Shown here piece by piece: positions 47,811 to 63,206 of a DNA stretch of 64,000 nucleotides (its first letter is position 1; each line of letters opens with the position of its first letter). The position numbers and the translations under genes are program-made. Below the pieces are notes generated by a model. That model had not been told where the DNA came from and ran no database searches. It saw only the letters and a list, made by a program, of their open reading frames with translations. The DNA comes from an uncultured Actinomycetota bacterium (lineage in GTDB: Bacteria; Actinomycetota; Actinomycetes; Propionibacteriales; Nocardioidaceae): positions 16,253 to 80,252 of the forward strand of contig CAWEUA010000017.1 of assembly GCA_963812055.1 (NCBI GenBank). The letters run 5' to 3'.

Positions 47811-48448
47811 CCGACGACCTCCGCGAGCGAGGTGAGCGCGGACTCGGCGGCCTCGGCCGCGTGCCGCACGTCGGCCTCCTGGCCGCTCAGGTAGACCCGC
47901 CCGGTGGCGCCCACCATCCGGTAGTCGATGACCTTGATCCCGGGGCCGACGGCCTTCTCGGCCTCGTTCGTCGCCAGGATCGCGTACGACGCCGGCTGCA
48001 TCTCGAGCACGAACACCGACTCGCCCGGCAGGGCCATCGAGCCGAGCTTGTTGCGGTTGACCAGGAACGCGTGCTGGCTGTCGATACGGCTCATGATCGT
48101 GCTCGCCAGGACCTGGGGCCGGGTGGCCGACGACGCGCTCGTGTCGAGGTGCTCCAGCACGGCGCCGGCCGCCGCACGCACCGCGTCGTTGGGGCCGTGG
48201 AACTCCAGGTAGCCGAACTGGCGCTCGACGATCAGCATCCCCGACGAGATCCGCGCGTGCTTGAGCGCGACGTCGGTCAGCGGCTCGATGTCGAGCCCGG
48301 GGGAGACCTCGATGATCTGGGCCGCGTCGCCGGCGCGAGGCAGCGTGCCGCGGATCCAGGAGCCCAGGTAGCACATCGTCTGCGGCTGGAGCCGGTCGAG
48401 ATGGATGAAGCTGCGGAGCTGGGTGCTGGGTTCAGCCACGGTGCCCAC
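47807..48448 (-). CDS. Second BMC-T tandem-domain shell protein
   Basis: LRSFIHLDRLQPQ, IEVSPGLDIE, VERQFGYLEFH, ATNEAEKA, GATGRVYLSG; paralogous to 46079-46744. Confidence 0.88.
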   Translation of the reverse strand: MGTVAEPSTQLRSFIHLDRLQPQTMCYLGSWIRGTLPRAGDAAQIIEVSPGLDIEPLTDVALKHARISSGMLIVERQFGYLEFHGPNDAVRAAAGAVLEHLDTSASSATRPQVLASTIMSRIDSQHAFLVNRNKLGSMALPGESVFVLEMQPASYAILATNEAEKAVGPGIKVIDYRMVGATGRVYLSGQEADVRHAAEAAESALTSLAEVVG

Positions 48449-50033
48449 CGCCGATCAGGTCGTGGAGCTCTTCGACGATGATCCGGCGCAGCTCCTCGCG
48501 GAGGTCGTCGTCGTTCGTCGTCGCGGCCGCGCGCTCGCGGCGTGCCGGCTCGCGGGCAGCGCCGGCATCGTCGCGGGCATTGGACGGGGTCGGGTACGCC
48601 GGCACCGGGCCCGAGGCGGCGCGCCACGGCGTGAGCCCGGCGAAGTCGCCCATCGGCACCGACGCGTCGGCGTTGTGGGCCAGCCGGACCCAGTTGACCA
48701 GGTGGTCCGGTCGGAGGTTCTCGCCGACGGAGGACCCACCGGCGTACCCGGTGCCGATGGTCATCGTCGGCGCCAGGTGGGTCTCGATGCCGGCGCCCCC
48801 GAGGCTGTTGCCGACGTTCACCGAGACCCGGAGCACGTTGCAGGCGACGCCGAACTCGAGGATGGTCGCCGGGTCGGTCGAGTGCACGGCCGCGGAGTGG
48901 CCGGCGCCGCTGATGCGCAGCACGGCCCGCGCCGCCTTGATGCCCGCGGCGGCGCTGGGCACGCGGACCAGCCCCAGGAGCGGCGTCAGCTTCTCGCGGG
49001 CGAGCGGCTCCTCGGGCACCACCTGCTCGAACTCCGCGACCAGCACCTTCGTGTTGTGCGGCACCTGGACGCCCGCCTTCTCCGCCAACCAGGTGGCGGA
49101 CTTGCCCACGACCGCCGGGTCGAACCGGTCGTGGGGGAAGACGAGGTCGCGGACCAACACGGCCTGCTCGGCGTCGAGCAGGTAGGCGCCCGCGGACCGC
49201 ATCGCCCGGGTGAACGCATCGGCCACCCGGTCCTCGACGATCACCACCGACTCGTTCGTGCACAGGCACGAGTTGTCGAACGCCTTGGACTCGACGATCC
49301 GCCGAGCGGCGGCGTTGAGGTCGGCGGTGGCGTCGACGAGCACCGGCACGTTGCCGGGACCGACGCCGAGGGCCGGGGTACCGGAGCGGTACGCCGCGCG
49401 CACGACGGCGTTGCCGCCGGTCGCGACGATCGCACTGGTGCGTGTGTCGGTCATGAGGGCGTCGATCAGGGGGATCGTCGGTTCGCTCACGACCTGCACC
49501 ACTCCGGCTGGCGCCCCGGCTGCCTCGGCGGCGGCGCCCAGGACCCGAGACGCATCAGCACAGACGCGCTTCGCCATCGGGTGCGGACTCACCACGACGG
49601 CGTTGCGGGTCATCAGGCTGAGCAGGATCTTGAAGTAGACGGTGGCCACCGGGTTGGTCGACGGCGTGAGCGCCAGCACGACCCCGGCGGGGCGAGGCAC
49701 CTCGACGATCTTGAGCTCGTCGTCGATGCGGGGCGTGACGAAGTCGGCGCCGGCGTAGAAGTCGAGCACGCCGCGCGAGCACGCCTCGTTCTTGAGCCGT
49801 TTGTGCTCGACGACGCCGAAGCCGGTCTCGGCGACGGCGCGCTCGGCGTACTCCTGCGCGTGGTCCACCGCCGCGGCCACGACGGCCTCGAGGATCCGGT
49901 CCACCGCGGCCTTGTCGAGCATCCGGAACGCGCGGGAGGCCCACTCGGCACGCTCGAGCATCGCCCGCGCCTGCGGTACGTCGGTCGGCTCGGGCTCGAG
50001 GTACGTCGAGCTCAGGGATGTCGTCTCGCTCAT
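48432..50033 (-). CDS. CoA-acylating aldehyde dehydrogenase (EutE/PduP-like) with C-terminal encapsulation peptide
   Basis: PAGVVLALTPSTNP, ATGG, GVGPGNVP, SKAFDNSCLCTNE (catalytic Cys), EKLTP, GHSAAVH; C-terminal DDLREELRRIIVEELHDLIG. Confidence 0.92.
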   Translation of the reverse strand: MSETTSLSSTYLEPEPTDVPQARAMLERAEWASRAFRMLDKAAVDRILEAVVAAAVDHAQEYAERAVAETGFGVVEHKRLKNEACSRGVLDFYAGADFVTPRIDDELKIVEVPRPAGVVLALTPSTNPVATVYFKILLSLMTRNAVVVSPHPMAKRVCADASRVLGAAAEAAGAPAGVVQVVSEPTIPLIDALMTDTRTSAIVATGGNAVVRAAYRSGTPALGVGPGNVPVLVDATADLNAAARRIVESKAFDNSCLCTNESVVIVEDRVADAFTRAMRSAGAYLLDAEQAVLVRDLVFPHDRFDPAVVGKSATWLAEKAGVQVPHNTKVLVAEFEQVVPEEPLAREKLTPLLGLVRVPSAAAGIKAARAVLRISGAGHSAAVHSTDPATILEFGVACNVLRVSVNVGNSLGGAGIETHLAPTMTIGTGYAGGSSVGENLRPDHLVNWVRLAHNADASVPMGDFAGLTPWRAASGPVPAYPTPSNARDDAGAAREPARRERAAATTNDDDLREELRRIIVEELHDLIGGGHRG

Positions 50034-51310
50034 GCCGCTCCCCGGGCGGTGGAGTCGGTCCGGGCGCTGGCGATCCCGACCGCCACCCGGTCGAGGAGCT
50101 CCTCGGCGAGGTCGGGCGTGAGCAGGAGGCCGGGCTTGAACTGCAGCACCTGCGGGTCGAGGGTCGAGAAGATCGCCCACACACCGTGCTCGTACAGGTG
50201 CCGGCTCACCAGCATCGCGCCCCGCGGATGGTCGAACTCGAGCCCGATCACGAGGCCGTCCTGCCGGATTCCGGTGAACCAGCCCGGGTTGTCGTCGCGG
50301 ATCTGGTCGAGCCCCTCACGCAGCAGGTCCGCGAGGTAGTGCACCATCGAACGGGTCTCGGGGCGGCTGCAGATCTCGAGGGTCTTCATCGCGGCGATGC
50401 AGCCGACCTCGGCCCCGCCGAACGTCGACATGTGGGCGAACCCGTCCTCGGTGAGCCAGCCCGCGCACCGCTCGCTGACCAGCACGGCCGCGATCGGGTA
50501 CATGCCGCCCGACAGCCCCTTGCCGGTGACGAGGATGTCCGGCTCGATGCCGTGCTTGGAGATGCACCAGAGCTCGCCGGTGCGCATCAACCCGGTCTGC
50601 ACCTCGTCGGCGACGTACAGCGCGTCGTACCTCTCGCAGAGCTGCTTGACCGTCTCCAGGTAGCCGGGGTCGGGGAGCGGGAAGCCGTACGTCGCGGGGA
50701 TCGACTCCATCAGCACGGCGGCGACGTCGCGACCGCGCAGCGCATCCTCCATCGCTTCGAGGTCGTTGAACGGGACCTGGGCGACCTCGTCCGGACGGTC
50801 GGCGAGGAACAGCTTCGCGAAGCGGTCGTCGCCGGCCGTGACGGCCAGCCCGGTGTGACCGTGGTAGGCCTTCACGATCGAGACGATCTTGCGCTTGCCG
50901 GTGGCGTGCCGGGCCGTCTTGATGGCGATGTCGATGGCCTCGCCCCCGCCGCTGGCGTAGATCACCTTGGTGAGCCCAGGAGGTGCCGACGCGATCAGCG
51001 CCTCCGCGAGGGCGGTCCGCGCCAGCGACGGGAAGTGGTGGTTGCCGATGTCGAAGCGGTGCATCGCCTGCGCGACGGCGGCGACGACCTCGCGGTTGCG
51101 GTGGCCCACGTTGTAGGTGCCGCCGTTGAGATGGGCGTCGATCAGGCGGCGACCCGACATGTCCCAGATCAGGTAGCCCTCACGCCGGTCGATCACCAGG
51201 GGGGTGCCCGAGTCGATCCAGAACTGGGTCTTGCCCGGGTTCCAGAACTCCTTGGCCTTGTCGAGGACCTCCTGCTTGTCCTCGAAGGAGAAGGCCCCGT
51301 AGTCGGTCAC
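50030..51310 (-). CDS. Class III PLP-dependent aminotransferase-fold enzyme (candidate amino-alcohol-phosphate phospho-lyase)
   Basis: SGGGEA, AYHGHT, ESIPATYG, DEVQTG, TGKGLSGG (PLP Lys), STFGG; first gene of the BMC operon. Confidence 0.9.
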   Translation of the reverse strand: MTDYGAFSFEDKQEVLDKAKEFWNPGKTQFWIDSGTPLVIDRREGYLIWDMSGRRLIDAHLNGGTYNVGHRNREVVAAVAQAMHRFDIGNHHFPSLARTALAEALIASAPPGLTKVIYASGGGEAIDIAIKTARHATGKRKIVSIVKAYHGHTGLAVTAGDDRFAKLFLADRPDEVAQVPFNDLEAMEDALRGRDVAAVLMESIPATYGFPLPDPGYLETVKQLCERYDALYVADEVQTGLMRTGELWCISKHGIEPDILVTGKGLSGGMYPIAAVLVSERCAGWLTEDGFAHMSTFGGAEVGCIAAMKTLEICSRPETRSMVHYLADLLREGLDQIRDDNPGWFTGIRQDGLVIGLEFDHPRGAMLVSRHLYEHGVWAIFSTLDPQVLQFKPGLLLTPDLAEELLDRVAVGIASARTDSTARGAA

Positions 51311-57255: not shown

Positions 57256-58839
57256 ATGACGGGGGACCTGGTCGCCGGCATCGACATCGGCAACGCGACC
57301 ACCGAGATCGTCTTCGCGCGCTCTGCTCAGGGCAGACTCACGCCGGTCCTGGCCGAGCAGGTCCCCACCCGCGGCGCGAAGGGTTCGGCGACGTCGGTCA
57401 CGGCCGCGGCCGCCCTGGTCCGGCGGATGTCCGAGCGGCTGGGCGAGCCGCCGGTCCGGGGGGCCGTCGCCCGACTGACGCCGGTGCACACCGGGGTCGT
57501 CAGCGGCGTCGCGGCTGGAGCCGACACCGGCCGGCTGTCCGTCGTCCCGGTCGAGGGGCGGACGCTGGTCCACGCCGGCGCGGCCGTCGGGCGGGGCGTC
57601 TGGGTCGACCAGCTCGAGAGTGCGACCGGACCGGTCGTCGCCCTGGTCCGGTCGGGGACCGGGTACGCCGAGGCCGCCGCTGCCGTGAACCGGGCGGCCG
57701 CCGACGTCGTCGCCGTGGCCCTGGCCGACGACGAGGCGGTGCTGGTCGGCAACCGGTTGGAGTCGCGGGTCCCGGTGCTCGACCAGGTGCCGGTCGAGCG
57801 GCTCGCGGCCGCCTCCCGCGTCGCCCTGGAGGTGGCTTCTCCGGGCGGCGCGCTGGCGCGGGTCGTCGACCCGCTGTGGCTCTCGTCGGAGCTCGGCCTC
57901 GACGCCGCGGACCGGTCCCTTGCGGCGACGGCCGCGTCGCAGCTCGCCGGGCGGTCGTCGGGTCTCGTGCTGCTGGAGACGTCTCCAGCAGCTTCATCCG
58001 CCACGCCGGACGACCTCTCCGCGGTCGTGCGGGTCGAGGGCGGATGGCGCCTGGCCGACACCCGCACGACGTACGCCGACCTGGCTGTGGTCGACGTCAC
58101 CGAGATCGCGTGGCCGCACGAGCCCGGCGACCACCGGCTGGCCGCGGCGTACCTCGCCGGCGAGGAGTCGGCGGTCGACCCGTCCGCCGCGCTCGCCGAG
58201 CGGCTCGGCTTCCCGGTCGAGCTGGTGACGGACGAGGCGGGGATGGCCGAGCTCGGCGCGGCGAGCACGCCGGGCGCCGATCCGGACGCGGCGGTGCTCG
58301 ACCTGGGTGCCGGCACGGCCGATCTCGTGGTGGCCGGGGCCGCGGAGACCCGGGCCGGGTGCGGAGCGCTGCTGACGCTGGCGGTCGCGCAGGCGCTCGG
58401 GATCACGCGAGGGTCGGCGGAGTGGGTGAAGCGCGGCCCGTGCGTCCGGGTCGAGGGTCCGACGGTGCGGGTGGCCGAGACGGGGGAGCGGTACCTCGAC
58501 GACACTCCCGCGCCGTCCTCGGCGATCGGCCGGCTCGCCGTACCCGGACCCGCCGGCCTGCTCGGCTTCGGCGCGGAGCTCCCCGCGGCGTCGTGGCGCG
58601 CGGCCCGGTGGGCGCTGAAGGAGGCGGTGCTCGGTCGGGCGCTGCGCGAGACCGGGCTGACGCTGCCCGCCACGCTGGTCGTGGTCGGTGGTCCCGCCGG
58701 CGACGACGAGGCGCTGACCGCCGTCTCCGCCCTGGTCCCTCCCGGCACCGTGGTCGGCCGGGCGAACGTCGCCGGCGTCCTCGGTCACCGTCACGCCGTC
58801 GCGTGGGGCCTCGCCCTCACCGCCGCATCTCGCTTGTAA
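57256..58839 (+). CDS. pduG: Diol dehydratase reactivase alpha subunit (PduG/DdrA-like)
   Basis: AGIDIGNATTE, TRGAKGS, LADDEAVLVGNRL, VLDLGAGTAD, VVVGG, HAVAWGL. Confidence 0.82.
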   Translation: MTGDLVAGIDIGNATTEIVFARSAQGRLTPVLAEQVPTRGAKGSATSVTAAAALVRRMSERLGEPPVRGAVARLTPVHTGVVSGVAAGADTGRLSVVPVEGRTLVHAGAAVGRGVWVDQLESATGPVVALVRSGTGYAEAAAAVNRAAADVVAVALADDEAVLVGNRLESRVPVLDQVPVERLAAASRVALEVASPGGALARVVDPLWLSSELGLDAADRSLAATAASQLAGRSSGLVLLETSPAASSATPDDLSAVVRVEGGWRLADTRTTYADLAVVDVTEIAWPHEPGDHRLAAAYLAGEESAVDPSAALAERLGFPVELVTDEAGMAELGAASTPGADPDAAVLDLGAGTADLVVAGAAETRAGCGALLTLAVAQALGITRGSAEWVKRGPCVRVEGPTVRVAETGERYLDDTPAPSSAIGRLAVPGPAGLLGFGAELPAASWRAARWALKEAVLGRALRETGLTLPATLVVVGGPAGDDEALTAVSALVPPGTVVGRANVAGVLGHRHAVAWGLALTAASRL

Positions 58840-58906
58840 CACGCCGTCCAGAGCTGTTCCACGTCGTTGCGTCGGCGTGGAAGAGCTGTGGACAGCGTGT
58901 TACAAG
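58833..58906. terminator. Long imperfect hairpin between convergent reactivase and MocR genes
   Basis: CTTGTAACACGC (58833-58844) / GCGTGTTACAAG (58895-58906) with inner TTCCACG/CGTGGAA pairing. Confidence 0.55.
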
Positions 58907-58907
58907 G

Positions 58908-60242
58908 TCAGCGATGCCCGGCCCAGGTGCCGGCGCGGGCGGCGTCGGCGACCAGGTCGGCGACGCCGTCGTGGGAGCCGTTCAGCGAGGAGGTGGTGAT
59001 CCGGATGTGGTCGGACCCGGGCGGGGAGATCCAGAACGGGTCGCCGCTCGCGGCGCGGACGCCGGCCGCGGCCAGGTGGAGCAGCGCCGCGCCTTGCTCG
59101 GCCACCGGCACCCAGACGTTGATCCCGTCGCGGCCGGGCACCTCGACCCCGCGACCCGCGAGCGCGTCGACCATCGCGGCCGTCCGGGCGGCGTACGTCG
59201 CCTGCGCGTCCGCCACGAGCGTCCGCGAGGACTCGTCGGTGAGCAGGTCGAGCAGGATCGACTGCACCAGCCGGCTGCTCCATCCCTGCCCGAGGTAACG
59301 CCGCTCCACGATCGGCCCGACGATGCGCGCCGGCCCCCCGATGGCGGCGAGCCGCAGGTCCGGACCATGGGTCTTGGAGAAGCTCCGCACGAGCACGGTG
59401 CGGTCGGGGAGCAGGCTTCCCAGCGACACGGGAGACCCGGACGGCGTGCCCCCGGCCGAGTCGTCCTCGACCACGAGGACGTCCCGACCCACGAGCGCGG
59501 CGGCCAAGTCCTCGGCTCGTGACTGCGACAGCGACTGACCCGACGGGTTCTGCCCCCACGGCTGGAAGAAGAGGACCTTCGCGCCGGCGTCCATGGCGGC
59601 CACGGCATCCGCGACCACCGGCCCCTCGGCGTCGTACCCGACCGCGATCGGAACGGCGCCCGCCATCTCCAGGAGGTCGAGCAGCGGGGGGAAGCACGGC
59701 TGCTCGACCGCGACCCGGTCGCCGAACCGCAGGTGCGCGGCGACGAACTGGCTGTGGGCGTCCATGGCCCCGTCCACGACGGTCAGGGCCTCGACCGGGT
59801 TGGGCCACGACTCCTCCAGCACCGCGCGCAGGGCGGGCACGACGGGCTCCTCGAGGTAGGAGTGCGCCGTGTCGTCCCGTGGCACGCGCTGCATCGCGGC
59901 GTGCAGGTCGGGCAGGAGGCGCGGATCGGGGAGTCCGGTCGAGAGGTCGACCCGGTAGCCCGCGTGGGAGTCGAGCGCGCGACGGTAGCGACGCGGCCCG
60001 ACCGACGCCTCGCGCACCCGCGTGCCGCGACGGCCGTCGGTCTCGATCAGCCCGGCCCGCGCGAGCTGCGACCAGGCAGCGCTGATGGTGGCAGGAGCGA
60101 CCTGGAGGTCGCGGGCCACCCGGCGGATCGGGGGGAGTCGCTCGCCGGGTCGCAGGACGCCGCGGTCGATGCCGGCGGACAGGGCGAGGGCGATGCCCTT
60201 CGCCGAGTGGTCGTCCACCGCATCGACCAGCTCCTGCCACAT
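58908..60242 (-). CDS. MocR/GabR-family PLP-dependent transcriptional regulator (GntR HTH + aminotransferase-like domain)
   Basis: GERLPPIRRVARDLQVAPATISAAW, GRRGTRV, EQPCFP, QNPSG, VEDD, RSFSKTHGPDLRLA. Alternative start 60254. Confidence 0.9.
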   Translation of the reverse strand: MWQELVDAVDDHSAKGIALALSAGIDRGVLRPGERLPPIRRVARDLQVAPATISAAWSQLARAGLIETDGRRGTRVREASVGPRRYRRALDSHAGYRVDLSTGLPDPRLLPDLHAAMQRVPRDDTAHSYLEEPVVPALRAVLEESWPNPVEALTVVDGAMDAHSQFVAAHLRFGDRVAVEQPCFPPLLDLLEMAGAVPIAVGYDAEGPVVADAVAAMDAGAKVLFFQPWGQNPSGQSLSQSRAEDLAAALVGRDVLVVEDDSAGGTPSGSPVSLGSLLPDRTVLVRSFSKTHGPDLRLAAIGGPARIVGPIVERRYLGQGWSSRLVQSILLDLLTDESSRTLVADAQATYAARTAAMVDALAGRGVEVPGRDGINVWVPVAEQGAALLHLAAAGVRAASGDPFWISPPGSDHIRITTSSLNGSHDGVADLVADAARAGTWAGHR

Positions 60243-60272
60243 GTTTTGTAACATAGCAATGAAAGCATTGCT
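60241..60272. promoter_or_regulatory. Candidate MocR operator palindromes in the divergent promoter
   Basis: ATGTT-TTGT-AACAT (60241-60254) and AGCAATG-AAAG-CATTGCT (60255-60272). Confidence 0.5.
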
Positions 60273-60303
60273 CCAGGTAGGGGTAGGTCGATATTTTCAT
60301 CCC

Positions 60304-61794
60304 ATGACCACCCGGATCCCCCACTGGACCAATGGCGCCGCGACCCAGGGCGGCTCCGGCCGCTCCGGCGCCGTCTTCAACCCCGCGACGGGCGAGCAGA
60401 CCGGCGAGGTCGACCTCGCCAGTGCCGCCGAGCTCGACGCCGCCGTCGCGAGCGCGACCGAGGCCGCCGCCATCTGGCGGTCGGCGTCGCTCGCCACCCG
60501 CACCGGCGTCCTCTTCAAGTTCCGCGAGCTGCTCGCGTCGTCCATGGACGAGCTGGCCGAGATCGTCACCGCCGAGCACGGCAAGGTGCTCTCGGACGCC
60601 AAGGGCGAGATCCAGCGCGGGCTCGAGAACGTCGAGTACGCCTGCGGCGTGGCCGACCACATGAAGGGTGGCTACTCCGAGCAGGCCGGCACCGGCGTGG
60701 ACGTCTACTCGATCCGCCAGCCCCTGGGCGTGGTCGCCGGCATCACGCCGTTCAACTTCCCGGTCATGGTGCCGCTGTGGATGTGTGCCAACGCGATCGC
60801 GACCGGCAACGCCTTCATCCTCAAGCCGAGCGAGAAGGACCCGTCGGCCTCGCTGTTCCTGGCCGAGCTGTGGAAGAAGGCCGGCCTCCCCGACGGCGTC
60901 TTCTCCGTCGTCAACGGCGACAAGGAGGCGGTCGACGCGATTCTCGGCCACGCGGGCATCGCCGCGGTGAGCTTCGTCGGCTCCACCCCGATCGCGCGTT
61001 ACATCTACGAGACCGGCACCCGCAACGGCAAGCGTGTCCAGGCCCTCGGCGGCGCGAAGAACCACATGCTCGTGCTGCCCGACGCCGATGTCGAGATGGC
61101 CGCGGATGCTGCCGTCTCGGCGGCGTACGGCGCGGCGGGCGAGCGCTGCATGGCGATCTCCGTGGCCGTGGCGGTCGGCGACGTGGCCGACCCACTGGTC
61201 GACGCGATCGCCGCCCGCCTGCCCAAGCTCCGCATCGGCGACGGCACCGACCCCGACTCCGAGATGGGTCCCTTGATCACCCGCGAGCACCGCGACAAGG
61301 TCGCCGACTACATCCGGCAGGGCGTCGAGTCCGGCGCGACCGCGGTGGTCGACGGCCGCGAGGCCGACGTCCCGAGCGACGGCTTCTTCCTCGGTACGAC
61401 GCTCCTGGACAAGGTCAGCCCCGAGATGACCGTCTACACCGACGAGATCTTCGGACCGGTGCTCTGCGTCGTCCGGCAGGAGTCGTACGACGACGCGATC
61501 GAGCTGATCAACAGCAACCCGTTCGCCAACGGCACCGCGATCTTCACCCGCGACGGCGGCGCCGCCCGGCGGTACCAGTTCGACGTCGAGGTCGGCATGG
61601 TCGGCGTCAACGTCCCGATCCCGGTCCCGGTGTCCTACTACTCGTTCGGTGGCTGGAAGGCGTCGCTGTTCGGCGACACCCACATGTACGGGCCCGAGGG
61701 GATCGCCTTCTACACCCGCGGCAAGGTGGTCACGTCGCGCTGGCCCGACCCGGCCACGTCGACGATCGACCTCGGCTTCCCGACCCACCGCTGA
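60304..61794 (+). CDS. mmsA: CoA-acylating (methyl)malonate-semialdehyde dehydrogenase
   Basis: ITPFNFPVMVPLW, KPSEKDP, FVGSTP, QALGGAKNH, YGAAGERCMA, EIFGPVL, VGVNVPIPVP, FGGWKASLFGD, KVVTSRWP. Confidence 0.93.
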   Translation: MTTRIPHWTNGAATQGGSGRSGAVFNPATGEQTGEVDLASAAELDAAVASATEAAAIWRSASLATRTGVLFKFRELLASSMDELAEIVTAEHGKVLSDAKGEIQRGLENVEYACGVADHMKGGYSEQAGTGVDVYSIRQPLGVVAGITPFNFPVMVPLWMCANAIATGNAFILKPSEKDPSASLFLAELWKKAGLPDGVFSVVNGDKEAVDAILGHAGIAAVSFVGSTPIARYIYETGTRNGKRVQALGGAKNHMLVLPDADVEMAADAAVSAAYGAAGERCMAISVAVAVGDVADPLVDAIAARLPKLRIGDGTDPDSEMGPLITREHRDKVADYIRQGVESGATAVVDGREADVPSDGFFLGTTLLDKVSPEMTVYTDEIFGPVLCVVRQESYDDAIELINSNPFANGTAIFTRDGGAARRYQFDVEVGMVGVNVPIPVPVSYYSFGGWKASLFGDTHMYGPEGIAFYTRGKVVTSRWPDPATSTIDLGFPTHR

Positions 61795-61823
61795 CGACCG
61801 GCTCGACCCACGAAGGAGTACCC

Positions 61824-63206
61824 ATGACCCCGACGTACGACGGTCCGCTCGCCGGCATCCCGGCCGACGAGGAGTCGGTCCGGAAGCTGGACCGCACCCA
61901 CGTGTTCCACTCGTGGTCGGCGCAGGCGCTGATCGACCCGCTGCCGATCGCGACCGCGTCCGGGTCGCGGTTCACCGACTACGAGGGGAAGTCCTACCTC
62001 GACTTCTCCAGCCAGCTGGTGAACGTCAACATCGGCTACCAGCACCCCAAGCTGGTGCAGGCGATCGCCGACTACGCCCAGCAGATGACGACCATCCAGC
62101 CGGCGTTCGCCAACGACGCCCGGTCGGAGGCGGCTCGGCTGATCACCGAGGTCGCGGGGCACGACCTGAACCAGGTGTTCTTCACCAACGCCGGAGCCGA
62201 GGCCAACGAGAACGCCGTCCGGCTCGCCCGGCTCCACACCGGGCGCCCGAAGATCCTGGCGATGTACCGGAGCTACCACGGCGCCACCCACGGCGTCATC
62301 GGGCTGACCGGCGACCCGCGCCGCTGGGGCACCGAGCCGCACACCATCCCCGGGATCGTGCACTTCTGGGGTCCCTACCCCTATCGGTCGGCCTTCCACT
62401 CGTCCACGCCCGAGGAGGAGACGACCCGGGCGCTGCAGCACCTGCGCGAGACGATCATGGTCGAGGGCGCGAACACGATCGCGGCGATCATCCTGGAGCC
62501 CGTCGTCGGCACCAACGGCATCCTGGTGCCCCCGCCGGGCTACCTCGCCGGCGTGCGCGAGATCTGCGACGAGCACGGCATCCTGCTGATCGCCGACGAG
62601 GTGATGGCCGGGTTCGGGCGCTGCGGTGAGTGGTTCGCGATGCAGCACTGGGACGTCCGGCCCGACCTGATCTCCTTCGCCAAGGGCGTCAACTCCGGCT
62701 ACGTGCCGCTCGGCGGCGTCGTCATCAGTGACCCGGTGGCCGAGACCTTCCAGCAGCGCGCCTACCCCGGCGGCCTCACCTACTCCGGCCACCCGCTCGC
62801 CTGTGCCAGCGCGGTCGCGTCGATCGAGATCTTCAAGGAGGAGGGGATCATCGAGAACGCCCGGAAGCTCGGCACGGACGTGATCGGCCCCGAGCTGGCG
62901 AAGATCGCCGACCGCCATCCCTCCGTCGGCGACGTCCGCGGGCTCGGTGTGTTCTGGGCGGTCGAGCTGGTCAAGGACCGCGAGACGCGCGAGCCCCTGG
63001 TGCCCTACAACGCGGCGGGTGAGGCGGCAGCCCCGATGAACGCCTTCGCCGGTGCCTGCAAGCAGCGTGGTCTCTGGCCCATGACGCACTTCAACCGCAC
63101 CCACGTCGTCCCGCCGTGCACGATCACCGAGCAGGACCTCAGGGAGGGCCTGGCCGCGCTCGACGAGGCGCTCGACACCGCCGACTCGTACTACACCGGC
63201 AGCTGA
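61824..63206 (+). CDS. Class III omega-amino-acid aminotransferase (beta-alanine/taurine:pyruvate-type candidate)
   Basis: VFHSWSAQ, YLDFSSQLVNVNIG, RSYHGAT, EPVVGTNG, DEVMAGFGR, FAKGVNSGY, GGLTYSGHPLA. Confidence 0.9.
   Translation: MTPTYDGPLAGIPADEESVRKLDRTHVFHSWSAQALIDPLPIATASGSRFTDYEGKSYLDFSSQLVNVNIGYQHPKLVQAIADYAQQMTTIQPAFANDARSEAARLITEVAGHDLNQVFFTNAGAEANENAVRLARLHTGRPKILAMYRSYHGATHGVIGLTGDPRRWGTEPHTIPGIVHFWGPYPYRSAFHSSTPEEETTRALQHLRETIMVEGANTIAAIILEPVVGTNGILVPPPGYLAGVREICDEHGILLIADEVMAGFGRCGEWFAMQHWDVRPDLISFAKGVNSGYVPLGGVVISDPVAETFQQRAYPGGLTYSGHPLACASAVASIEIFKEEGIIENARKLGTDVIGPELAKIADRHPSVGDVRGLGVFWAVELVKDRETREPLVPYNAAGEAAAPMNAFAGACKQRGLWPMTHFNRTHVVPPCTITEQDLREGLAALDEALDTADSYYTGS

What the first reader, a model, noticed from the sequence alone, without database searches (positions are those of the whole stretch)
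58908..63206. MocR-controlled semialdehyde dehydrogenase + omega-aminotransferase pair abutting the dehydratase operon
Seen: a MocR regulator is divergent from mmsA and a class III aminotransferase, starting about 70 bp after the reactivase. Established: this enzyme pair degrades beta-alanine to malonate semialdehyde and then acetyl-CoA, and in actinobacteria usually accompanies pyrimidine or polyamine catabolic genes. No pyrimidine-catabolic genes flank it here. Inference: it could finish a route amino-diol -> 3-aminopropanal -> beta-alanine -> acetyl-CoA. Alternatively it serves polyamine catabolism linked to the Pot-type transporter at 35.9-40.1 kb.
Basis: inference. Interest (0 to 1): 0.6.

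Follow-up and report, generated by a model that had tools for sequence, protein, structure and literature searches.

The report
MocR-controlled beta-alanine breakdown module
This is an ordinary, self-contained three-gene unit (a sensor-regulator, a transaminase and a semialdehyde dehydrogenase) that most likely breaks down beta-alanine-type amino acids, and it lies beside the vitamin-B12 dehydratase genes only in one narrow Nocardioides lineage.

Summary
A MocR-type regulator (58908-60254, minus strand) is divergent from mmsA (60304-61794) and a class III aminotransferase (61821-63206). The regulator's 3' end lies 68 nt past the reactivase stop.

The proposed link to the dehydratase is not supported.
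- Of 64 dehydratase loci with enough flank, only the six nearest Nocardioides relatives carry the module; none of the other 58 do.
- In the same genus, the aminotransferase was found in 15 of 24 other genomes and the dehydratase in one, 240 kb from the pair.
- A strong hairpin separates the convergent reactivase and MocR genes.
- A conserved bipartite operator (TTTGTrACA-N3-CA-N9-TTGT) sits before mmsA in 14 other Nocardioidaceae loci. Its only convincing copy in this genome is at the mocR/mmsA promoter.

Same-genus orthologues sit in pyrimidine-type operons or PucR/oxidase operons. One 99%-complete genome keeps the trio without a dehydratase or dihydropyrimidinase.

The arrangement matches the beta-alanine-inducible OapR/oapTD system of Cupriavidus necator and the PydD/MSDH arm of pyrimidine degradation. 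The best reading is an autonomous beta-alanine/3-aminoisobutyrate catabolic module: a new member of a known kind, of low interest. This scan has noted similar modules in at least ten other genomes.

The parts
58833..58906 (.). Perfect-stem-rich palindrome (34-nt arms, 6-nt loop) filling the gap between the convergent reactivase and MocR genes. It is a likely bidirectional terminator and belongs to a dispersed palindromic repeat family.
   Evidence: inverted repeat I1, 88% complementary; dG -58.8 kcal/mol, z -8.9, 0 of 200 shuffles fold as well; related copies on C25, C1, C15 and C13; the six close relatives have non-homologous but also hairpin-forming spacers
58908..60254 (-). MocR-subfamily GntR regulator, 448 aa (444 aa if it starts at the ATG at 60242). 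It has a wHTH domain and a fold-type I aminotransferase-like sensor domain, with the SFSK lysine motif at residues 291-294.
   Evidence: It is the only MocR-type gene found with this query in the assembly.
60244..60277 (+). Predicted MocR operator: TTTGTAACA (60245-60253), CA (60257-60258) and TTGC (60268-60271). The two boxes form a direct repeat with 22-bp register. The site overlaps the mocR start region and lies 27-60 bp upstream of the mmsA ATG.
   Evidence: conserved in six close relatives and in L019; the same motif before mmsA in 13 further family loci, including four where mocR is co-directional; a PWM built without the window scores this site 35.9 bits, the best in the genome; the runner-up scores 17.5
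60304..61794 (+). mmsA: CoA-acylating methylmalonate/malonate-semialdehyde dehydrogenase, 496 aa. The catalytic Cys lies in GERCMA (motif starts at residue 279).
   Evidence: TIGR01722, 698 bits against cut-off 448.5; E 1.6e-181 to PDB 4ZZ7; the only MMSDH-type gene in the assembly
61821..63206 (+). Class III (omega) aminotransferase of the PRK06062 / 'taurine--2-oxoglutarate transaminase' family, 461 aa. The PLP lysine lies in SFAKG (motif starts at residue 285) and the Asp in DEVMAG (starts at 259).
   Evidence: NF004718, 751 bits against cut-off 472; best solved relative 6JIX, E 1.1e-110; automatic names

Best explanation
This is a self-contained, MocR-regulated catabolic module for beta-alanine and closely related beta/omega-amino acids such as 3-aminoisobutyrate.

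Proposed mechanism:
- The PLP-bearing sensor domain of MocR binds the amino acid as an external aldimine (inferred from GabR and OapR).
- MocR sits on a bipartite direct-repeat operator that overlaps its own start and the mmsA promoter. It switches on mmsA and the aminotransferase gene and autoregulates (inferred from the operator position).
- The aminotransferase passes the amino group to 2-oxoglutarate or pyruvate, giving malonate or methylmalonate semialdehyde.
- MmsA oxidatively decarboxylates that product to acetyl-CoA or propionyl-CoA.

Shown here: the gene identities, the operon anatomy, the conserved operator, and independence from the dehydratase locus. Inferred: the effector, the amino acceptor and the substrate range.

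The adjacency to the B12 dehydratase operon is a single juxtaposition inherited within one narrow Nocardioides clade. It is not a conserved functional linkage.
For: - Family assignments are above curated cut-offs, and catalytic motifs are intact.
- MocR orthologues (45-55% identical) lie next to mmsA in 13 of the 16 best Nocardioidaceae hits.
- mmsA and the aminotransferase are adjacent in 9 of 16 same-genus loci.
- The operator TTTGTrACA-N3-CA-N9-TTGT is present before mmsA in all 14 compared foreign loci. Its only strong copy in this genome is at 60244-60277 (35.9 against 17.5 bits).
- Four same-genus orthologous pairs sit in operons with CN-hydrolase (ureidopropionase-like) and amidohydrolase (dihydropyrimidinase-like) genes. 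The products of those enzymes would be beta-alanine or 3-aminoisobutyrate.
- The same architecture is experimentally beta-alanine-inducible in Cupriavidus necator (OapR/oapTD, PMC7057948; mmsA1-aptA-MocR, PMC6572756).
- PydD plus MSDH is a described terminal arm of Pyd clusters (PMC7332683).
- Independence from the dehydratase. A strong hairpin lies between the convergent genes.
- G013 (99% complete) keeps MocR-mmsA-AT although neither a dehydratase nor a dihydropyrimidinase was found in it.
Against: - No substrate or effector has been assayed.
- The closest solved relative of the aminotransferase, and all automatic names, say taurine:2-oxoglutarate.
- The module carries no transporter.
- This assembly shows no reductive pyrimidine genes, so the physiological source of beta-alanine here is unknown.
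- This is the only mmsA in the assembly, so it may also serve other routes, such as valine catabolism.
- The seven-genome clade does keep the module beside the dehydratase, so a local functional link cannot be excluded.
Confidence: 0.75

Rival explanations
1. One reading: in this clade the module completes a route amino-diol -> 3-aminopropanal (B12 dehydratase) -> beta-alanine -> malonate semialdehyde -> acetyl-CoA. On this reading the adjacency is functional.
For: - The adjacency is kept in the window and in six related MAG loci.
- The assembly lacks pyrimidine-catabolic genes that would otherwise supply beta-alanine.
- Earlier scan notes report an acidic-pocket dehydratase clade that travels with amino-alcohol genes (not tested here).
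Against: - Zero of 58 other dehydratase loci with at least 7 kb of flank carry the module. By contrast, the RMM-type aminotransferase is nearby in 28 of 64 and the FmdA-like gene in 19 of 64.
- The seven adjacent aminotransferases form one clade, which points to a single event.
- In G009, G231, G237 and G115 the pair sits elsewhere, and G090 has the dehydratase but no orthologous aminotransferase.
- Fourteen same-genus genomes have the aminotransferase without the dehydratase.
- The genes are convergent with a -58.8 kcal/mol hairpin between them.
- No MocR operator was found at the dehydratase or RMM promoters.
- The route needs an aminoaldehyde dehydrogenase that the module does not encode (inference).
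Confidence: 0.1
2. The module serves polyamine catabolism fed by the Pot-type ABC transporter at 35.8-40.1 kb (spermidine or 1,3-diaminopropane -> 3-aminopropanal -> beta-alanine).
For: - A PotA-like ATPase with a TOBE domain and a permease are present in the window.
- Three same-genus orthologous pairs sit with a PucR regulator and an FAD oxidase, a context typical of amine catabolism.
Against: - The transporter is 19 kb away, beyond the whole RMM and dehydratase loci.
- The module has no conserved Pot-type neighbour in 16 same-genus loci; the only hits were ATPase paralogues at 43-45% identity.
- No operator copy was found near the transporter.
- No aminoaldehyde dehydrogenase or polyamine oxidase is encoded in the module.
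Confidence: 0.08
3. The module is a taurine or hypotaurine nitrogen-assimilation unit. On this reading the aminotransferase is a true taurine:2-oxoglutarate transaminase and MocR is a TauR analogue.
For: - The best solved relative is BkToa, PDB 6JIX.
- Sources name close homologues 'taurine--2-oxoglutarate transaminase'.
- TauR regulators belong to the MocR subfamily, and Rhodococcus has them (PMC5320631).
Against: - The partner enzyme is a bona fide MMSDH, not Xsc, IsfD/TauF or SafD.
- No xsc above cut-off was found in the assembly: best 293 bits against a cut-off of 676.
- The operator bears no resemblance to the TauR consensus CTGGACYTAA quoted in PMC5320631.
- Same-genus orthologues sit in pyrimidine-type operons.
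Confidence: 0.05

Closest known systems
OapR / oapT-oapD (H16_A0271 / aptA H16_A0272 / mmsA1 H16_A0273) of Cupriavidus necator H16, the beta-alanine-inducible MocR system (PMC7057948, PMC6572756; regulog predicted in PMC5320631)
   Same: - A MocR-family regulator is divergent from an operon holding an omega-aminotransferase and a (methyl)malonate-semialdehyde dehydrogenase.
- The operator is built of short repeated boxes in the divergent region.
- The regulator probably activates the operon and represses itself.
   Different: - The host is an actinobacterium, whereas the 2016 survey listed the OapR group only in alpha- and betaproteobacteria.
- The gene order is mmsA then aminotransferase.
- The aminotransferase belongs to PRK06062 (Toa-like), not the AptA/beta-alanine-pyruvate type: NF052567 scores 248 bits against a cut-off of 500.
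- The operator sequence is different.
- Orthology of the regulators was not tested.
PydD (beta-alanine aminotransferase) plus MSDH, the terminal arm of bacterial reductive pyrimidine degradation clusters (PMC7332683)
   Same: The same two enzyme activities are adjacent. Same-genus orthologues sit with CN-hydrolase and amidohydrolase genes.
   Different: Here the upstream Pyd genes are not adjacent, and they were not found anywhere in the 92%-complete assembly.
Taurine:2-oxoglutarate aminotransferase BkToa of Bifidobacterium kashiwanohense (PDB 6JIX)
   Same: It is the closest solved relative of the aminotransferase, aligned nearly end to end at E 1.1e-110.
   Different: BkToa works with a sulfoacetaldehyde reductase in taurine nitrogen assimilation (PMC6616044). 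Here the partner is MMSDH, and no Xsc was found.
GabR / gabT-gabD of Bacillus subtilis (PDB 4N0B)
   Same: A MocR-type PLP sensor is divergent from an omega-aminotransferase plus semialdehyde dehydrogenase operon, and it uses a direct-repeat operator.
   Different: Sequence similarity is very weak: E 0.0027 to GabR and 33 bits to NF052285 against a cut-off of 600. The dehydrogenase is CoA-acylating MMSDH, not succinate-semialdehyde dehydrogenase.

Membership tests
MocR subfamily of GntR regulators | N-terminal GntR-type winged HTH | tested here: met
   PF00392, 43.7 bits (cut-off 27), residues 19-80
MocR subfamily of GntR regulators | C-terminal fold-type I aminotransferase-like domain with the PLP lysine | tested here: met
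   PF00155, 44.6 bits (cut-off 19.7), residues 102-421. The SFSK motif starts at residue 291 and is followed by an Arg, as in class I aminotransferases. The check is by motif only.
MocR subfamily of GntR regulators | Binds repeated short boxes in the control region of adjacent target genes | tested here: inconclusive
   A conserved bipartite motif lies before mmsA in 14 foreign loci and is unique in this genome. Binding itself cannot be tested here.
OapR / oapTD beta-alanine-inducible system | MocR regulator beside an operon of omega-aminotransferase plus (methyl)malonate-semialdehyde dehydrogenase | tested here: met
   linkage is conserved in the family
OapR / oapTD beta-alanine-inducible system | Aminotransferase of the beta-alanine/omega-amino acid:pyruvate (AptA/OapT) type | tested here: not met
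   NF052567 (AptA) scores 248 bits against a cut-off of 500. The protein belongs instead to NF004718/PRK06062.
OapR / oapTD beta-alanine-inducible system | Regulator orthologous to C. necator OapR; beta-alanine as effector | not tested
The effector needs an experiment.
CoA-acylating methylmalonate-semialdehyde dehydrogenase (TIGR01722) | Score above the curated cut-off and an intact catalytic Cys | tested here: met
   698.2 bits against 448.5. GERCMA and PFNFP motifs are present. E 1.6e-181 to PDB 4ZZ7.
PRK06062 / Toa-like class III aminotransferases | Score above the curated cut-off; PLP Lys and Asp motifs | tested here: met
   NF004718, 751.2 bits against 472. SFAKG and DEVMAG motifs are present.
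PRK06062 / Toa-like class III aminotransferases | Taurine:2-oxoglutarate activity | not testable with these tools
   Only names and the 6JIX similarity are available. The gene context argues for beta-alanine-type substrates.
RMM2 / acidic-pocket B12 dehydratase locus | Conserved co-location with the dehydratase across lineages | tested here: not met
   6 of 64 loci with enough flank carry the module, and all six are from the clade with dehydratase at least 90% identical; 0 of 58 others do. It is also absent from L042-L044 and lies 240 kb away in G009.
Reductive pyrimidine degradation (Pyd) cluster | Adjacent dihydropyrimidinase and ureidopropionase genes | tested here: not met
   None are in the window or the assembly. 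They are present beside orthologous pairs in L028, L030, L032 and L034.

The most novel reading that the evidence does not exclude
In this one Nocardioides clade, the MocR-mmsA-aminotransferase module may have been captured next to the RMM2 / acidic-pocket B12 dehydratase island and now drains its product. The route would be amino-diol -> 3-aminopropanal -> beta-alanine -> acetyl-CoA, in a genome where no pyrimidine-derived source of beta-alanine was found.
Probability: 0.1. Interest if true: 0.55.

Novelty: new member of a known kind. Interest (0 to 1): 0.2.

Why it matters
Mostly it matters as a clarification. The module should not be used as evidence for the substrate of the neighbouring atypical B12 dehydratase, because the two are linked only in one narrow lineage and appear to be regulated separately.

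There are two modest positive results. The first is a conserved Nocardioidaceae operator for this MocR group (TTTGTrACA-N3-CA-N9-TTGT), which a gel-shift or reporter assay could test directly. The second is evidence that the PRK06062 'taurine--2-oxoglutarate transaminase' label is probably a misnomer for these actinobacterial enzymes, since they partner with MMSDH and, in same-genus relatives, with pyrimidine-degradation genes.

Tried and rejected
- **Flank synteny.** I looked for shared flanking genes between the window and the module's loci in same-genus genomes, using TPR, ABM, tRNA synthetase, RMM and Pot genes as queries. None was shared apart from ABC ATPase paralogues. So no ancestral insertion site could be defined.
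- **Neighbour clustering.** Clustering all neighbours of the module in 16 loci gave only subgroup-specific contexts and no universal partner.
- **Consensus scans.** The sigma-70 scan found no promoter. The only terminator-like hit, on the minus strand inside mmsA, is at chance level. The promoter result is uninformative for a high-GC actinobacterium.
- **Simple regex scans for the operator.** These gave a handful of chance-like hits. They were replaced by the PWM scan.
- **panD and the aminotransferase.** I considered that the aminotransferase might be biosynthetic for beta-alanine, because panD was not found. Across the genus, panD and the aminotransferase are not associated: the aminotransferase is present in 5 of 8 panD-negative genomes and 10 of 16 panD-positive genomes. 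I dropped this as a main reading.
- **GabR, PdxR, PtsJ, EhuR or TauR membership.** All NCBIfam scores for the regulator are far below cut-off, and PDB similarity to GabR and PdxR is marginal.
- **BkToa structure paper.** It was not in the library, so residue-level specificity comparison was not done.
Full report
**What is there**

Third-position GC and ORF analysis together with Pfam and NCBIfam scans confirm three genes at the stated coordinates.
- A MocR-subfamily regulator lies at 58908-60254 on the minus strand. It has a GntR HTH and a class I/II aminotransferase-like domain, and the SFSK lysine motif starts at residue 291.
- mmsA lies at 60304-61794 on the plus strand. It scores 698 bits against TIGR01722 (cut-off 448.5) and E 1.6e-181 to the solved MMSDH 4ZZ7, with the GERCMA cysteine intact.
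- A class III aminotransferase lies 26 nt further on, at 61821-63206. It scores 751 bits against NF004718/PRK06062 (cut-off 472).

The best solved relative of the aminotransferase is the taurine:2-oxoglutarate aminotransferase 6JIX (E 1.1e-110). Close homologues are very numerous and are automatically named 'taurine--2-oxoglutarate transaminase'. In the 4.17-Mb, 92%-complete assembly, each of the three genes is the only one of its type.

**Boundary with the dehydratase operon**

The reactivase ends at 58839 and MocR ends at 58908 on the other strand, so the two genes are convergent. The whole 68-nt gap is a palindrome with 34-nt arms. It folds at -58.8 kcal/mol, with z = -8.9 against shuffles. 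It belongs to a dispersed palindromic repeat family with copies on at least four other contigs. In the six closest relatives the spacer is not homologous but again forms a hairpin. This looks like a transcriptional boundary.

Downstream of the aminotransferase come a TPR protein, an ABM-domain protein, a class II tRNA synthetase and an HD phosphohydrolase. These are unrelated housekeeping-type genes.

**Regulation**

The mocR-mmsA spacer is the only AT-rich tract nearby and is nearly invariant in the six close relatives. MocR orthologues at 45-55% identity in other Nocardioidaceae lie beside mmsA in 13 of the 16 best hits. Nine are divergent and four co-directional.

In all of these loci, and in L019, the sequence before mmsA carries the same bipartite motif, TTTGTrACA-N3-CA-N9-TTGT. 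This is a direct repeat in 22-bp register. Its presence in the co-directional loci ties it to the mmsA promoter rather than to mocR.

I built a weight matrix from these 14 foreign sites, leaving out the window and its near relatives. It scores 60244-60277 at 35.9 bits, the top hit on both strands of the genome. The runner-up scores 17.5 bits, below the range of every training site (27-43 bits). The predicted regulon is therefore the mocR/mmsA divergon alone, with nothing at the dehydratase, RMM or Pot promoters.

Box 1 abuts the probable mocR start at 60242, which suggests autoregulation. That point is an inference.

**Is the module linked to the dehydratase?**

- A scan of one genome per species found 76 loci with a relative of the fused dehydratase. 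Sixty-four of them have at least 7 kb downstream.
- mmsA and the aminotransferase are present in six of these, all Nocardioides-type MAGs with a dehydratase at least 90% identical. They are present in none of the other 58.
- By contrast, the RMM-type aminotransferase is nearby in 28 of the 64, and the FmdA-like gene in 19.
- Three further family loci lack the module within the fetched flanks, about 6-7 kb past the reactivase.
- Among 24 other same-genus genomes, the aminotransferase was found in 15 and the dehydratase in one, G009. There the two are about 240 kb apart.
- In dehydratase-positive G231, G237 and G115 the pair lies on other contigs. G090 has the dehydratase but no orthologous aminotransferase.
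- In a maximum-likelihood tree the seven dehydratase-adjacent aminotransferases form one clade (92/97 support), consistent with one juxtaposition event that was then inherited.

**What the module does**

Same-genus orthologous pairs sit in informative contexts.
- Four loci (L028, L030, L032, L034) have a MocR regulator, or at least the same operon. That operon holds a CN-hydrolase, an amidohydrolase, a luciferase-like monooxygenase and an NMT1-type ABC transporter, followed by the aminotransferase and mmsA. This is a pyrimidine-degradation-type operon whose product would be beta-alanine or 3-aminoisobutyrate.
- Three loci (L024-L026) have a PucR regulator and an FAD oxidase.

The literature supplies direct analogues.
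- C. necator OapR, a MocR-family regulator divergent from oapT and oapD (aptA-mmsA1), responds to beta-alanine. The reported Km is about 200 uM, and 3-aminobutanoate and 3-amino-2-hydroxypropanoate also induce (PMC7057948, PMC6572756).
- PydD plus MSDH is a described end of Pyd clusters (PMC7332683).
- The 2016 MocR survey listed the OapR group only in alpha- and betaproteobacteria (PMC5320631).

This actinobacterial group is therefore an analogous, not demonstrably orthologous, member. Its aminotransferase belongs to a different subfamily: the AptA model scores 248 bits against a cut-off of 500.

**Open points**

This assembly has no dihydropyrimidinase or ureidopropionase orthologue, no xsc and no detectable panD. 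The source of the substrate here is therefore unknown.

G013 is 99% complete and keeps the same MocR-mmsA-aminotransferase trio, yet no dehydratase and no dihydropyrimidinase were found in it. The module therefore does not need either pathway. Exogenous beta-amino acids or polyamine-derived beta-alanine remain possible inputs.

The taurine reading is weak because the partner enzyme is a genuine MMSDH and no Xsc was found.

**Verdict**

The basic functional assignment is supported, and the proposed coupling to the dehydratase is not. This is a new member of a known kind of system and is of low interest. The useful by-product is a testable operator motif. No claim in this report rests on the unpublished genome G189.

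Noticed in passing
window 58833-58906; related copies at G000 C25:312340-312409, C25:342295-342368, C25:143037-143107, C1:9611-9680, C15:58916-58987, C15:60174-60247, C13:58928-58999: The terminator-like hairpin between the reactivase and MocR belongs to a dispersed palindromic (REP/MITE-like) repeat family whose ends read CTTGTAACACG...CGTGTTACAAG. The six closest relatives have unrelated hairpins at the same junction.
   Followed up: partly
whole assembly G000; same-genus genomes G005, G008, G009, G018, G241: No panD (aspartate 1-decarboxylase, TIGR00223) was found in this 92%-complete assembly, nor in five same-genus genomes that are 97-100% complete. Twenty-one of 30 genus members have it. 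How the panD-negative strains make beta-alanine for CoA is unclear. Presence of the aminotransferase does not track panD.
   Followed up: partly
L032:1822-12162 (also L028, L030, L034): Same-genus genomes carry a MocR-controlled operon: CN-hydrolase, amidohydrolase, luciferase-like monooxygenase, NMT1-type ABC transporter, aminotransferase and mmsA. No classical dihydropyrimidine dehydrogenase sits in the operon.
   Followed up: partly
L047:17336-18712 and L049:17405-18781: In two of the six close relatives the aminotransferase is only 76-77% identical to the window's, although the adjacent mmsA is 93% identical. The two form their own well-supported sub-branch. This suggests gene-level replacement or recombination inside the module.
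   Followed up: no
window 60240-60254: mocR has two in-frame ATG codons, with the A at 60254 and at 60242 on the minus strand. The first lies inside operator box 1. Orthologues start immediately next to the box, which favours 60242 (444 aa).
   Followed up: partly
window 48432-50180 (-): The 582-aa RMM-locus aldehyde dehydrogenase matches Pfam Aldedh only weakly and partially (89 bits, residues 67-329). It is an atypical enzyme.
   Followed up: no
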